Positions 15,144 to 17,215 of a stretch of 46,847 nucleotides of DNA are shown here, in pieces. The stretch is taken from sequence record NC_024793.1, one strand, 5' to 3'. The notes below the pieces were generated by a model. That model was given only the letters and a program-made list of their open reading frames with translations, had not been told where the DNA came from and did not search any database. Origin of the DNA: Escherichia phage vB_EcoS_AHP42. The stretch's first letter is position 1, and every line of letters starts with the position of its first letter. Both the position numbers and the translations under genes were made by a program.

Positions 15144-15911
15144 ATGGCAACGCCATTAAGCACTAAGTTTGAGAATCAATTGCAAAGCTTGTTCCCTGGT
15201 GAGGTCGTTACACTAATTGAAGTGGATGGAGGAAAGTTCGGCGCACCAGTTTACCGCTTTCATGGGGAGAACATAAGCTACACACCTGAAGAAATTATGA
15301 TGGCTCAGTCAACTGGCCAGCTACTGCCAGCAAAGACAATTACGTTCCGTGGCGAAGAGTACGGAGCAAGGCCTTTCGGTATTCAGGGGATCAATATGAC
15401 CTCTGATGGCAAGGCAAATAAGGTGACTCTAGTCGTATCCAACGCAGACCAGAATATATCTGCGCTTATCCGCACTTACAATGGACTTGTTCAGGCCAAA
15501 GTTACTATCTGGATCACCCTTCGAGAGAATATTAACGAAGATGGCACCATTGCTGATGGGGATTACCGCAAGCTGGTTTACTTCATTGAGCGACCTAAGC
15601 AGGTTGACTACAATACGGCCTCATTTGAACTAACTAGCCCAATGGATATGGATGGTATTTATATTCCTGCGCGACTTGTTCAGTCTGTTTGCTATTGGGC
15701 TCAGCGAAATCAGTACCGCTCAGGTAATGGATGTAACTACATGGGTACTCGATATTTCGATAAGGACAACGCGCCTGTGACTGACCCATCGCAAGACTTC
15801 TGTGCCGGAACGGTTCGTGCGTGCAAACTAAGGTTCGGAGAAAATAATCAGTTAGACTTTGGTGGTTGCGCTGCTGCAAGCCTGCAAGCTAAAGCTAACC
15901 AGCAGACTTAA
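15144..15911 (+). CDS. minor tail protein (lambda L-like)
   Basis: 255 aa with a C-terminal four-cysteine cluster (CYW...C...C...C) like the lambda L Fe-S motif. Confidence 0.65.
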   Translation: MATPLSTKFENQLQSLFPGEVVTLIEVDGGKFGAPVYRFHGENISYTPEEIMMAQSTGQLLPAKTITFRGEEYGARPFGIQGINMTSDGKANKVTLVVSNADQNISALIRTYNGLVQAKVTIWITLRENINEDGTIADGDYRKLVYFIERPKQVDYNTASFELTSPMDMDGIYIPARLVQSVCYWAQRNQYRSGNGCNYMGTRYFDKDNAPVTDPSQDFCAGTVRACKLRFGENNQLDFGGCAAASLQAKANQQT

Positions 15912-15958
15912 GCACTTTTTGTTAATAGGAGGGCTCAGAAATGCGCTATCCTATAATC
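15909..15958 (+). promoter_or_regulatory. promoter of the inserted HNH gene (variant dyad aAGCAC-ttt-TTGTTA plus TATAAT)
   Basis: Degenerate copy of the right-half dyad overlapping the L-like gene stop, with TATAAT at 15952..15957 and RBS before the ATG at 15979; spacing 27 nt rather than 22. Confidence 0.45.
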
Positions 15959-15978
15959 TCTTAAACTGGAGATTAAAA

Positions 15979-16467
15979 ATGAACTGGAATGAAATTTTTG
16001 AATACAGAGATGGCAAGCTATACTGGAAAGTTAAATTAAGTAGAAAGGTAAAGGTTGGCTCTGAGGCTGGTTGCTCATCCTATGCCAATAAAGGTTATTG
16101 CATAATAAAAGTGCAAGGAAAGGTTAAGTTGAGGCATAGAATTATATGGGAGATGCATAACGGGCCTATACCTGAAAAAATGGAGATAGACCACATCAAA
16201 GGCGTTGACTTCGGAGACTTTATAGAGAATTTAAGATGCGTAACGAAGATTGATAATCAAAGAAACACAAAAAGGCCAAGGACAAACAATAGTGGTGTTA
16301 TTGGAGTTTGTTTCTGTAGCTCATCGTGTAAGTGGAAAGCCTCAATAGGAGATGGGTCAGGAAAAAGCGGAAAGGTTGTTTACTTTGGTGATTCATTTGA
16401 TGAAGCGGTTCGCGCGAGAAGGATTGCTGAAATTGAATTTGGTTATCATAAAAACCACGGGAGATAA
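15979..16467 (+). CDS. HNH homing endonuclease (AP2-type), paralog of 35672..36163
   Basis: MNWNEIFEYRDGKLYW N-terminus and HNH core; own TATAAT promoter and RBS. The track start at 15859 would overlap the L-like gene and is rejected. Confidence 0.75.
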   Translation: MNWNEIFEYRDGKLYWKVKLSRKVKVGSEAGCSSYANKGYCIIKVQGKVKLRHRIIWEMHNGPIPEKMEIDHIKGVDFGDFIENLRCVTKIDNQRNTKRPRTNNSGVIGVCFCSSSCKWKASIGDGSGKSGKVVYFGDSFDEAVRARRIAEIEFGYHKNHGR

Positions 16468-16468
16468 A

Positions 16469-17215
16469 ATGTTAACACCTAAAGTTAAACTCGAAATATT
16501 TCGCCACGCCAACGAGGTTTACCCGCAAGAATCTTGCGGGGTTGTAACTCAGAAGGGGATGGCGCAGAAGTATCACGGGATTACCAACGTATCCAAAACA
16601 CCAGAGCAATCATTCATTCTCGACCCAATGGAATTCATGGAGATTTCGGACAATGAAAGCGTTGTTTATGTTGTACATTCACATACTGGTGATGGCGCTA
16701 CTACTAGGCCAAGCGCAGCTGATATTTGCAGCTGCAATGAGTGCGAGCTTCCTTATGTTATTGTTTCTATACCTGAAGGGGACTTACGGATTATTCAGCC
16801 AGAAAAGATGCCGCTTGCTGGTCGCCCATGGGGTCTTGGCAGCTTCGACTGCTGGGGTTTGGTTATGGAATTTCACAAGCTACACGGTGTTAAGCTTAAC
16901 GATTATCGCGTAGATTATCAGTGGTGGACCAATGAATACCCTGACAATATCTACGATGATAATTGGGAGTTAGAAGGGTTCGAATTAGTCAGAAGCAATG
17001 ATATTCCAATTGGCTCAATGGTTATGATGCAGATTCAGAGCGAGAAGACCAACCACGCCGCCATATACATTGGTGACAATAAAATCCTACACCATTTATA
17101 TGGTAAGATGAGTAAGGTTGATTTGTACGGCGATTACTATCGTGAGCGGACTGTACGAATCGTAAGGCATAAAGATTTACCGGAGGATGCTGGTTATGAC
17201 CCAGAACGTGATTGA
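16469..17215 (+). CDS. tail tip assembly protein (lambda K-like, JAB/MPN + NlpC/P60)
   Basis: JAMM motif HSHTGDGATTRPSAAD and a Cys/His NlpC-like region (FDCWGLV). ATG at 16469 follows the HNH stop; the track start at 16352 lies inside the HNH gene. Confidence 0.75.
   Translation: MLTPKVKLEIFRHANEVYPQESCGVVTQKGMAQKYHGITNVSKTPEQSFILDPMEFMEISDNESVVYVVHSHTGDGATTRPSAADICSCNECELPYVIVSIPEGDLRIIQPEKMPLAGRPWGLGSFDCWGLVMEFHKLHGVKLNDYRVDYQWWTNEYPDNIYDDNWELEGFELVRSNDIPIGSMVMMQIQSEKTNHAAIYIGDNKILHHLYGKMSKVDLYGDYYRERTVRIVRHKDLPEDAGYDPERD

What the first reader, a model, noticed from the sequence alone, without database searches (positions are those of the whole stretch)
15909..16471. Homing-endonuclease cassette with its own promoter inserted between the L-like and K-like tail-tip genes
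The HNH gene 15979..16467 splits the otherwise conserved M-L-K-I-J order. It carries a TATAAT promoter and a degenerate copy of the right-half dyad overlapping the L-like stop, and its stop abuts the K-like start. A close paralog sits at 35672..36163 beside another dyad site, which suggests cassette mobility by homing or promoter-mediated recombination.
Basis: partly seen in the sequence, partly recalled or inferred. Interest (0 to 1): 0.45.

Follow-up and report, generated by a model that had tools for sequence, protein, structure and literature searches.

The report
Mobile HNH endonuclease gene between tail genes
A 557-base selfish-gene cassette encoding an HNH-type homing endonuclease, with its own phage-style promoter element, sits between two tail-tip genes of coliphage AHP42; it is a well-known kind of element and a clean but ordinary example.

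Summary
The window is Escherichia phage vB_EcoS_AHP42, a T1-like Rogunavirus. ORF 15979..16467 encodes a 162-aa HNH_3 protein. Its N-terminal half is I-HmuI-like, with catalytic D71/H72/N84/N93 intact. Its C-terminal half is AP2-like.

All listed Rogunavirus relatives (Jk06, C119, Rogue1, AHP24, AKS96 and others) lack it. They join L and K by a 9-11 nt spacer. The insert is 15912..16468.

Related cassettes occupy the same L|K junction in Sf12 (frameshifted), Rtp, DTL and JulesPiccard. Their ~70-nt leaders are much better conserved (86% nt over leader plus flanks) than their proteins (44-52% aa), so ORF bodies have probably been swapped. The leader is a diverged full-length copy of the published T1-like direct repeat, ATAGCAC-N3-TTGnTAAAA, plus a -10-like hexamer. 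It is the only confident copy in the structural module. The last HNH codons supply the ribosome-binding site for K.

The cassette lies on a mosaic breakpoint: C119-like DNA to the left, AHP24-like DNA to the right. Two further HNH paralogs (562..1077 and 35672..36163) are also variably present among relatives.

Best reading: a free-standing HNH-AP2 homing endonuclease gene. Cleavage, homing and promoter activity are inferred, not shown. This is a new member of a known kind, of low to moderate interest.

The parts
15144..15911 (+). Lambda-L-like minor tail gene, the left flank. Its last ~10-20 nt (between 15890 and 15903, through 15911) switch from C119-type to AHP24/Sf12-type sequence (ending ...CAG CAG ACT TAA).
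   Evidence: Pfam PF05100 E=3.6e-45. Column-by-column alignment with 11 relatives.
15912..16468 (+). Inserted cassette of 557 nt, 38% G+C against 44% for the window. It replaces the 9-11 nt L-K spacer of insert-free relatives.
   Evidence: Junction comparison. G+C values. Roughly 18% of the 3.1-kb query is missing in most of the listed close relatives.
15911..15925 (+). Core of the T1-like direct repeat (AGCACTTTTTGTTAA, 'T' subgroup). It overlaps the L stop codon and is the only confident copy in the structural half of the genome.
   Evidence: 17 hits against 2.15 expected. Apart from a 1-mismatch hit at 7890, all other hits lie between 22.5 and 45 kb. The same element is published for phage TLS: consensus aaATAGCACnnnTTGnTAAAA, ~76 nt upstream of start codons (PMC11447400).
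15947..15957 (+). Two overlapping -10-like hexamers. TATCCT (15947-15952) sits at the offset used by the other repeat copies. TATAAT is at 15952-15957.
   Evidence: In the other copies a TATAGT/TATATT-like hexamer lies about 36 nt after AGCAC. GCTATCCT is invariant in all five L|K cassettes, whereas TATAAT is TCTAAT in DTL. The sigma-70 scan found no -35 partner.
15968..15971 (+). GGAG ribosome-binding site for the HNH gene, 7 nt before the ATG.
   Evidence: Read directly from the sequence.
15979..16467 (+). HNH-AP2 endonuclease gene, 162 aa and intact. Annotated in GenBank as 'HNH endonuclease [Escherichia phage vB_EcoS_AHP42]'.
   Evidence: Pfam HNH_3. PHROG 99, E=1.7e-55. P0001 is 100% identical, a singleton cluster, and the next homolog is only 49% identical.
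16189..16266 (+). Codons for the His-Me finger core, D71-H72 ... N84 ... N93 ... N96.
   Evidence: The family profile aligns these residues to I-HmuI D74/H75/N87/N96 (1U3E, E=3.9e-8). H72 and N84 are invariant and D71 and N96 nearly invariant in 35 sequences.
16285..16443 (+). AP2-like C-terminal DNA-binding half (residues ~103-155: three strands plus a helix).
   Evidence: The family profile hits plant AP2/ERF domains (WRI1 E=1.3e-7, TEM1 E=5e-4). The AF2 model (pLDDT 89.6) shows strands at 110-113, 118-124 and 132-137 and a helix at 140-154. Foldseek hits to AP2 structures are weak. Pfam AP2 was not detected for this sequence alone.
16459..16463 (+). GGGAG inside the last HNH codons (CAC GGG AGA TAA). 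It is positioned to act as the ribosome-binding site for K.
   Evidence: Read from the sequence. The same arrangement occurs in Sf12, JulesPiccard, Rtp, DTL and phiEB49 gp40.
16469..17215 (+). Lambda-K-like tail-tip gene (JAB + NlpC/P60), the right flank. Sites 16477, 16489 and 16490 differ from the Jk06/C119 type and match AHP24/Sd1.
   Evidence: Pfam. Alignment.
35672..36163 (+). HNH-AP2 paralog 2 (163 aa, 50% identical). Present in AKS96 and C119 (96% aa identity to the C119 copy) and apparently in phiKP26. Rogue1 has a 66-aa gene there instead. Bracketed by repeat copies at 35601-35622 and 36158-36177.
562..1077 (+). HNH paralog 3, between the small and large terminase genes. Present in AHP24, AHS24, BECP10 and AKS96; absent from Jk06, Rogue1 and C119.
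   Evidence: phmmer search of six-frame ORFs..

Best explanation
This is a free-standing (intron-less) homing endonuclease gene of the HNH(HNN)-AP2 class, inserted in the L|K intergenic spacer of a T1-like phage.

Shown:
- It is an insertion relative to near-identical genomes.
- The protein has an I-HmuI-like N-terminal half with catalytic residues retained, and an AP2-like C-terminal half.
- The same junction carries related cassettes in two Drexlerviridae subfamilies.
- The cassette starts with a copy of the phage's own direct-repeat/-10 element and ends by supplying a ribosome-binding site for K.
- It coincides with a switch of phylogenetic affinity.

Inferred mechanism:
- During co-infection the enzyme is made from the repeat-led transcription unit, and probably also by read-through from L.
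- It binds the conserved L-end/K-start sequence of an insert-free genome. There the two halves are only ~10 nt apart, so the insertion itself splits the site and protects the carrier.
- It nicks or cuts that site, and repair templated by the carrier copies in the cassette plus some flanking DNA.
- Because the leader, the first 16 codons and the NHGR-stop/SD end are conserved among cassettes while the ORF bodies are not, ORF bodies appear to be exchanged between these anchors.
For: Insertion and junctions.

Domain identity and catalytic residues:
- Pfam HNH_3 E=3.4e-15.
- Family profile to I-HmuI 1U3E E=3.9e-8, and to AP2/ERF domains E=1.3e-7.
- H72 and N84 invariant.
- AF2 model pLDDT 89.6, with top Foldseek hit 1u3e_M at probability 1.00.

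Sporadic, same-site distribution:
- Sf12 gp43/42, Rtp rtp40, DTL gp41 and JulesPiccard bas03_0025 all sit at L|K.
- JeanPiccard and the other relatives are empty there.

Degeneration stage of the homing-gene life cycle: the Sf12 copy is frameshifted.

Multiple variably present paralogs at other junctions:
- TerS|TerL, exonuclease|, exoVIII|erf, erf|ssb, MCP|, TMP|M and I|J.

Leader against protein conservation: the leader alignment (including ~50 nt of L and the first ORF codons) averages 86% nt identity, while L|K proteins are 44-52% identical, no closer to each other than to HNHs at other sites. Window and Sf12 are identical over the first 48 nt of the ORF and then diverge.

Mosaic breakpoint:
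- Left flank 13.78-15.90 kb is 95-99% identical to C119 but 48-89% to AHP24.
- Right flank 16.47-18.63 kb has 9 mismatches in 2165 nt against AHP24, while C119 drops to 88-95% in I/J.
- The switch maps between 15890 and 15903.

Literature:
- HNH+AP2 is an established homing-endonuclease class (Magnani 2004, cited in PMC10448857 and PMC2248197).
- Multiple copies are known in T1 and Rtp (PMC2248197).
- Such genes sit at boundaries of genetic exchange, in tail operons, and are interchangeable at one site (PMC10448857).
- HNH genes of T1-like phages are described as mobile (PMC13164509).
Against: - There is no biochemical or genetic evidence for cleavage or homing in this phage or in any same-site relative.
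- The protein deviates at the otherwise conserved D/N-N box (G79-D80).
- Pfam AP2 is not detected for it alone.
- It is a singleton with no homolog above 50% identity, so purifying selection cannot be assessed.
- AHP24 carries the cassette-type flanking variants without the cassette.
- Non-nuclease cargo also uses this junction, with a repeat-element leader and the same GGAGATAAAATG right end (SU57, SCS31; phiEB49 gp37 and Phleasolo also have insertions there). Insertion here therefore need not depend on the nuclease.
- K is ~99-100% identical in all Rogunaviruses, so the right edge of any conversion tract cannot be placed. The left divergence from AHP24 could simply mark the end of a recently shared 1-13.6 kb block.
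Confidence: 0.7

Rival explanations
1. Nuclease-independent cassette ('moron') exchange. The L|K junction is a general plug-in site. Units that begin with the T1-like direct repeat and end with an SD/ATGTTAAC sequence are swapped by short-homology recombination (the phage encodes exoVIII and Erf-like proteins). The HNH gene is just one such cargo.
For: - SU57 and SCS31 carry a 117-aa non-nuclease gene at L|K. It has a canonical repeat element right after the L stop, and the right end is ...GGAGATAAAATGTTAACACC, as in the window.
- phiEB49 gp37 and the 99-nt Phleasolo insert occupy the same junction.
- At paralog 2, homology with Rogue1 ends at the upstream gene's stop and resumes at AAATAGCAC, and Rogue1 holds a different repeat-led small gene there.
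- phiEB49 gp40 at TMP|M has the same AGCACTTTTTGTTAA leader.
Against: - It does not explain why most variable cargo at such junctions in these phages is HNH genes.
- It does not explain why catalytic residues are retained.
- The right end of the window cassette has no repeat element, only about 12 nt shared with other cassettes.
Confidence: 0.15
2. Decaying relic. The cassette arrived by homing in the past, but the enzyme is now inactive or has no remaining target, and the gene persists only because its end provides the ribosome-binding site for K and its loss is rarely precise.
For: - The sequence is a singleton, with no homolog above 50% identity among 5.8 billion protein clusters.
- G79-D80 replaces the conserved D/N-N box, and the AP2 half is unusual (CFCSSSC), with no Pfam AP2 hit.
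- The Sf12 copy at the same site is already frameshifted.
- Degeneration after fixation is the published model for HNN-AP2 genes (PMC2248197).
Against: - The ORF is full length, with D71, H72, N84, N93 and N96 intact.
- It gives a confident two-domain model.
- Plenty of potential targets exist: all listed Rogunavirus relatives have empty L|K junctions.
Confidence: 0.12
3. Co-opted nuclease. The enzyme mainly serves the phage, for example by cutting competing co-infecting relatives (interference competition) or by stimulating recombination that shuffles tail modules, rather than spreading itself.
For: - The cassette lies exactly where L/M/TMP-3' ancestry (C119-like) meets K/I/J ancestry (AHP24-like).
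- Published work shows nuclease genes flanking exchangeable essential modules (PMC10448857).
Against: - This is not distinguishable from ordinary homing with co-conversion using sequence alone.
- Close relatives do well without the gene.
Confidence: 0.03

Closest known systems
I-HmuI (Bacillus phage SPO1 intron-encoded HNH homing endonuclease, PDB 1U3E)
   Same: - The N-terminal ~100 residues match: the family profile aligns residues 1-97 at E=3.9e-8, and it is the top fold match at probability 1.00.
- The catalytic D-H...N...N residues have the same 12/21 spacing (D71/H72/N84/N93 against D74/H75/N87/N96).
   Different: - I-HmuI is intron-encoded; this gene is free-standing between two genes, and no intron RNA family was found.
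- I-HmuI has a different C-terminal DNA-binding region, whereas this protein's C-terminal half is AP2-like.
- I-HmuI is known from the literature to nick one strand. Nothing is known here.
Free-standing HNN-AP2 endonuclease genes of phages (Xp10/OP1/Xop411; T1, Rtp, T5; ICP1 'IPA-HNH')
   Same: - Same domain order, HNH(HNN) then AP2.
- Multiple copies per genome, variable positions among relatives, and frameshifted or truncated decay products (PMC2248197, PMC10448857).
   Different: The Xanthomonas phage study found no conserved flanking sequence and proposed sequence-independent spread. Here the same junction is reused in two subfamilies, behind a leader conserved at 86% nt identity over leader plus flanks.
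Same-site cassettes: Rtp rtp40, DTL gp41, JulesPiccard bas03_0025, Sf12 gp43+gp42
   Same: - All lie between the L and K homologs.
- All share the leader (TA[AG]GCACTTnTTGyTAA ... GCTATCCT[A/C]TAATCT ... ATGAAyTGG).
- In all, the HNH 3' end overlaps or abuts the K start.
   Different: - The proteins are only 45-48% identical to the window protein.
- The Sf12 copy is split by a frameshift.
- In the Braunvirinae cassettes the L stop is the TAG of TAGCAC, and the last Ser codon is TCA rather than the AGC/AGT seen in empty-site or non-HNH-cargo relatives.
T4 free-standing homing endonuclease genes (mobE, seg genes)
   Same: - Intergenic selfish nuclease genes next to essential genes.
- They spread by cleavage of the gene-less genome and co-conversion of flanking markers (PMC2790892).
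   Different: The DNA-binding domains differ: the Mob class has a zinc finger, not AP2 (PMC10448857). The T4 cases have experimental proof of homing; this one has none.
T1-like direct repeat element (TLS: aaATAGCACnnnTTGnTAAAA)
   Same: [quoted passage not shown] TLS copies lie ~76 nt upstream (PMC11447400); most other window copies lie 71-83 nt upstream.
   Different: - The function of the repeat is unknown (stoperator-like, enhancer-like or UP-like are the published guesses).
- The cassette copy lacks the ATA preceding GCAC, because of the TAA stop.
- Its -10-like hexamer is TATCCT/TATAAT rather than TATAGT/TATATT.

Membership tests
HNH / His-Me finger endonucleases (Pfam HNH_3, I-HmuI type) | Significant match to the family model | tested here: met
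   PF13392 E=3.4e-15, 55.8 bits against a cut-off of 24.8. PHROG 99 E=1.7e-55.
HNH / His-Me finger endonucleases (Pfam HNH_3, I-HmuI type) | Catalytic Asp-His general base and metal-binding Asn residues present | tested here: met
   D71/H72/N84/N93 align with I-HmuI D74/H75/N87/N96. H72 and N84 are invariant in 35 homologs. The roles of these residues are taken from the I-HmuI literature.
HNH / His-Me finger endonucleases (Pfam HNH_3, I-HmuI type) | Beta-beta-alpha-metal fold | tested here: met
   The AF2 model (pLDDT 89.6) has strands at 68-72 and 85-89 and a helix at 90-95. Best PDB fold match is 1u3e_M, probability 1.00 over 98 columns. The Foldseek E-value itself is weak (1e-2).
HNH-AP2 (HNN-AP2) homing endonuclease class | C-terminal AP2 DNA-binding domain | tested here: inconclusive
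   The family profile hits AP2/ERF structures (E=1.3e-7 and 5e-4), and the model has a three-stranded sheet plus helix. However, the window protein alone gives no Pfam AP2 hit at E<0.01 (paralog 2 gives E=3.2e-5, below the curated cut-off), and Foldseek probabilities for AP2 structures are 0.4-0.8.
Homing endonuclease gene (functional definition) | Presence/absence polymorphism at one defined site among close relatives | tested here: met
   Absent from the listed Rogunavirus relatives, with clean junctions. Present at the same junction in Sf12, Rtp, DTL and JulesPiccard.
Homing endonuclease gene (functional definition) | Site-specific cleavage of the gene-less allele | not testable with these tools
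   Needs purified protein and L|K junction substrates.
Homing endonuclease gene (functional definition) | Gene conversion with co-conversion of flanking markers | tested here: inconclusive
   A change of ancestry maps between 15890 and 15903, and three cassette-linked variants lie in the first 22 nt of K. But AHP24 has these variants without the cassette, and K is too conserved to bound a tract.
Free-standing (not intron- or intein-encoded) homing gene | Lies between complete genes, with no self-splicing RNA around it | tested here: met
   L ends at 15911 and K starts at 16469, both full length compared with relatives. Rfam gave only two sub-threshold, unrelated hits in 15000-17300.
Sigma-70 promoter | -35 and -10 hexamers 16-18 nt apart | tested here: not met
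   The consensus scan of 14000-18000 does not report the site. TATAAT (15952-15957) has GAGGGC at the -35 position, and TTGTTA lies 27 nt upstream.
T1-like direct repeat element (TLS DR) | ATAGCACnnnTTGnTAAAA, on the transcribed strand, ~76 nt upstream of a start codon | tested here: met
   AGCACTTTTTGTTAA is an exact 15-mer shared with three other copies in the window. ATG is 68 nt downstream, and a -10-like hexamer sits at the same 36-nt offset. Consensus from PMC11447400. The ATA upstream of GCAC is replaced by the stop codon (TAA).

The most novel reading that the evidence does not exclude
The T1-like direct repeat plus -10 element is a portable, activator-type transcription unit. The dyad centre would sit near -42 relative to the likely start, the position typical of class II activators. 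On this reading the element also serves as the left recombination anchor of a general 'plug-in' cassette grammar: repeat-led leader, then cargo, then an SD for the next gene. Homing endonuclease ORF bodies would be swapped between a conserved 5' anchor (leader plus MNWNEIFEYRDGKLYW codons) and a 3' anchor (NHGR-stop/SD). That would let new nuclease specificities and non-nuclease morons colonise junctions inside the essential tail operon without breaking its expression.
Probability: 0.2. Interest if true: 0.45.

Novelty: new member of a known kind. Interest (0 to 1): 0.3.

Why it matters
The gene itself is already annotated as an HNH endonuclease, and the class (free-standing HNH-AP2 homing genes, several per T1-like genome) is well known. 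It would not surprise a specialist.

Its modest value is as a clean natural example:
- One defined junction (L|K) is reused across two Drexlerviridae subfamilies.
- The repeat-bearing leader is conserved far better than the nuclease it drives.
- The nuclease's last codons feed translation of the next essential gene.
- The cassette coincides with a breakpoint of ancestry between sibling phages from the same feedlot.

This makes AHP42 x AHP24 a ready-made cross for measuring homing and co-conversion in T1-like phages. It also gives a handle on the still-unexplained T1-like direct repeat.

Tried and rejected
- A single-sequence search of PDB found nothing relevant. A 35-sequence profile was needed.
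- I tested whether the 3' half of HNH1 was recently copied from paralog 2 in the same genome. Nucleotide identity is only 31-67% in that half, so this was rejected.
- I tested whether the L|K HNH proteins form a tight orthologous group. They do not: they are 44-52% identical to each other, the same as to HNHs at other sites.
- I scanned IMG/VR for the invariant leader 15-mer. Of 31 loci, only Rtp and Sf12 themselves carry the leader. The rest are chance matches, so no new carriers were found.
- Rfam showed no intron or other RNA family.
- I first read the 13.63-16.47 kb divergence from AHP24 as a co-conversion tract ending at the cassette. I softened this because the 100%-identical 1-13.6 kb block may itself be the recent exchange, and because K is near-identical in all relatives, so the right edge is unresolvable.
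- The genome paper for this phage does not mention HNH or homing in its main text.
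Full report
IDENTITY OF THE WINDOW. The HNH protein is 100% identical to 'HNH endonuclease [Escherichia phage vB_EcoS_AHP42]', carried on a 46,847-bp contig, the same length as the window. The first 2.5 kb are 100% identical to its sibling phage AHP24. The window is therefore a T1-like Rogunavirus (Drexlerviridae). It was published in PMC4070988, whose main text never mentions HNH or homing.

CHECK OF THE OBSERVATION. ORF 15979..16467 (162 aa) matches Pfam HNH_3 at E=3.4e-15. Its neighbours are lambda-L-like (15144..15911) and K-like (16469..17215) genes, within an M-L-[HNH]-K-I-J order. 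The HNH stop is 1 nt from the K ATG. TATAAT is at 15952-15957. The 'dyad' copy is AGCACTTTTTGTTAA at 15911-15925, and its first base is the last base of the L stop codon. The pattern AGCACNNNNTGYTAA occurs 17 times against 2.15 expected. Apart from a 1-mismatch hit at 7890, this is the only copy outside 22.5-45 kb. The paralog at 35672..36163 is 50% identical and is bracketed by two repeat copies. A third paralog lies at 562..1077.

IT IS AN INSERTION. Megablast of 14700-17800 finds 116 phage records. The listed Rogunavirus records cover only about 82% of the query, because they lack roughly 560 nt. The junctions are as follows:
- Jk06, C119, Rogue1, phiKP26, phiJLA23, e4/1c and AKS96 read ...CAAAACTAA-GGAGAGG(G)TA-ATGTTAACG...
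- AHP24 reads ...CAACAGACTTAA-GGGGGTATTC-ATGTTAACA...
- The window reads ...CAGCAGACTTAA-[557 nt]-ATGTTAACA...
The insert is therefore 15912..16468. Its G+C content is 38%, against 44% for the window.

THE SAME JUNCTION IS USED ELSEWHERE. Related cassettes sit between L and K in Sf12 (Rogunavirinae) and in Rtp (rtp40), DTL and JulesPiccard (Braunvirinae). Close relatives such as JeanPiccard are empty at that site. An alignment of the five cassette 5' regions (the last ~50 nt of L, the ~70-nt leader and the first ORF codons) averages 86% nucleotide identity, with GCTATCCT invariant. The proteins, in contrast, are only 44-52% identical. That is no closer than to HNH proteins at other junctions. 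True orthologs look different: the exonuclease-side HNH copies of the window and C119 are 96% identical. The window and Sf12 share the L end, the leader (more than 90% identical by eye) and the first 48 nt of the ORF (100%), and then diverge sharply. The simplest reading is that ORF bodies are exchanged between conserved 5' and 3' anchors. The Sf12 copy is frameshifted into 'HNH' and 'transcription factor' ORFs, which is the decay stage described for this class (PMC2248197, PMC10448857).

OTHER CARGO AND OTHER SITES. SU57 and SCS31 carry a 117-aa non-nuclease gene at L|K. It has a canonical repeat/-10 element right after the L stop, a terminator, and the same ...GGAGATAAAATGTTAACACC right end. 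phiEB49 has gp37 at that junction, plus an HNH gene (gp40) at TMP|M behind an AGCACTTTTTGTTAA leader. Phleasolo has a 99-nt insert with a 30-aa hydrophobic ORF. Sd1 has an HNH at I|J. AHP24 has one at exoVIII|erf. C119 has copies after the major head gene, at erf|ssb and after the exonuclease gene. Each Rogunavirus examined thus carries its own combination of HNH genes.

THE PROTEIN. A 35-sequence profile matches I-HmuI (1U3E) over residues 1-97 (E=3.9e-8) and plant AP2/ERF domains over residues 96-151 (E=1.3e-7 and 5e-4). D71/H72/N84/N93 align with I-HmuI D74/H75/N87/N96. H72 and N84 are invariant in the family alignment. The AlphaFold model is confident (pLDDT 89.6). Its best PDB match is I-HmuI (probability 1.00), followed by AP2 domains with weak scores. 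There are three deviations: G79-D80 replaces the usual D/N-N box, the AP2 half is Cys-rich and gives no Pfam AP2 hit on its own, and no homolog exceeds 50% identity.

THE LEADER. The 'dyad' is the 21-nt direct repeat already described for phage TLS. Its consensus is aaATAGCACnnnTTGnTAAAA, it lies ~76 nt upstream of start codons on the transcribed strand, it is also seen in T1, Rtp and Rogue1, and its function is unknown (PMC11447400). In the window, 15 copies each precede an ORF on the same strand: 13 of the other 14 at 71-83 nt (one at 152 nt), and the cassette copy at 68 nt. Most carry a TATAGT/TATATT-like hexamer about 36 nt after AGCAC. The cassette copy is colinear with the full element, with TATCCT at the canonical offset (15947-15952) and TATAAT overlapping it. 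No -35 hexamer exists at sigma-70 spacing, and the consensus scan does not call the site. 'Own promoter' is therefore plausible by analogy but is not shown. There is no terminator at either end of the cassette, so read-through from L and into K is expected.

THE 3' END. The last codons, CAC GGG AGA TAA, place GGGAG (16459-16463) 5 nt before the K ATG. The same use of the conserved ...NHG codons as the downstream gene's ribosome-binding site is seen in Sf12, JulesPiccard, Rtp, DTL and phiEB49 gp40. This is an inference from sequence, but it explains how the insertion can be tolerated inside an essential operon.

MOSAIC CONTEXT. The window is 100% identical to AHP24 from 1 to about 13.63 kb. From 13.78 to 15.90 kb it is 48-89% identical to AHP24 but 95-99% identical to C119. 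Immediately right of the cassette it returns to AHP24-like sequence (9 mismatches in 2165 nt), while C119 falls to 88-95% in I/J. Column by column, the switch from C119-type to AHP24/Sf12-type sequence lies between 15890 and 15903. The first informative K sites (16477, 16489, 16490) are AHP24/Sd1-type. The cassette therefore sits on an ancestry breakpoint, as reported for phage nuclease genes generally (PMC10448857). Two caveats apply. K is nearly identical in all relatives, so the right edge of any conversion tract is unresolved. And AHP24 has the cassette-type flanks without the cassette. Paralog 2 likewise sits at the left edge of a tract (36.2-38.7 kb) that diverges from AHP24.

VERDICT. 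This is a free-standing HNH-AP2 homing endonuclease gene with a T1-like repeat-led leader, inserted at a recurrently used L|K junction. The insertion, domain identity, retained catalytic residues, same-site recurrence, leader conservation and breakpoint coincidence are shown. Cleavage, homing, promoter activity and the ribosome-binding-site role are inferred. The main rival is nuclease-independent cassette exchange at repeat and SD anchors. The cassette is a new member of a known kind, and interest is low to moderate.

Noticed in passing
window 562-1077: A third HNH_3 paralog lies between the small and large terminase genes. Upstream are a sigma-70-like promoter and a terminator, as annotated in the identical AHP24 sequence. 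It is present in AHP24, AHS24, BECP10 and AKS96, and absent from Jk06, Rogue1 and C119.
   Followed up: partly
window, 15 sites: 15911, 22551(-), 25071, 30084(-), 30551, 32947, 33632, 34318, 36162, 40233(-), 40431(-), 41393(-), 42070(-), 43797, 44920: These are copies of the T1-like direct repeat (ATAGCAC-N3-TTGnTAAA). In most, a TATAGT-like hexamer follows 36 nt after AGCAC, then often a conserved CATCGAAACGA leader, with the ORF starting 68-83 nt downstream. The half-sites TAGCA/TGCTA form a dyad whose centre would lie near -42 of the likely start, which looks like a class II activator site. In some copies the sequence around the -10 can form a GATGGGGTA...TACCTCATC hairpin. The function of the repeat is unknown in the literature (PMC11447400).
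   Followed up: partly
window 35601-35622 and 36158-36177: At the paralog-2 locus, the stop codon (TAG) of the upstream exonuclease gene and the stop codon of the HNH gene are each embedded in an AAATAGCAC repeat copy. Rogue1 has a different repeat-led 66-aa gene between the same two boundaries.
   Followed up: partly
window 15105-15143 (M|L junction); L002 706-1026, L005 706-1052: The M|L junction also varies. C119, phiKP26, Rogue1, AHP24 and Sf12 carry a ~280-310-nt insert with a small ORF, annotated variously as 'tailspike sialidase' or hypothetical. The window, Jk06, AKS96 and phiJLA23 lack it.
   Followed up: no
L014 1510-1608 (Phleasolo L|K junction): A 99-nt insert at the same L|K junction encodes a 30-aa hydrophobic peptide (MKLLCAYLIFIFLSMFGLSLTLILNMAGVL).
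   Followed up: no
L018 576-929, L019 579-932, L020 2290-2655: SU57, SCS31 and phiEB49 carry a 117-121-aa gene of unknown function at L|K, annotated 'putative tail fiber' or 'virion structural protein'. In SU57 and SCS31 it has a canonical repeat-led leader and its own terminator.
   Followed up: partly
window 1-13630 and 43800-46847: These stretches are essentially 100% identical to AHP24. They are contiguous in a circularly permuted genome, giving a block of about 16.7 kb, while the rest of the genome is a patchwork. This suggests a very recent exchange between the two feedlot phages.
   Followed up: partly
window 41700-43200: This region has little or no match in either AHP24 or C119 (0-74% of each 300-nt chunk matched). 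It looks like a lineage-specific replacement in the early region.
   Followed up: no
window 18634-19100: A dense cluster of mismatches to both AHP24 and C119 lies inside the J-like tail-tip gene. It may be a separate small mosaic tract.
   Followed up: no
L008/L007/L009 ~1495-1502 against L017 ~495-503: In the Braunvirinae HNH cassettes the last L codons are recoded (AAT CAA TCA TAG) compared with empty-site or non-HNH-cargo relatives (AAT CAG AGC/AGT TAA). The amino acids are the same, but the Ser codon family and the stop codon both differ. The cassette's left end therefore seems to include the last 2-3 codons of L.
   Followed up: partly
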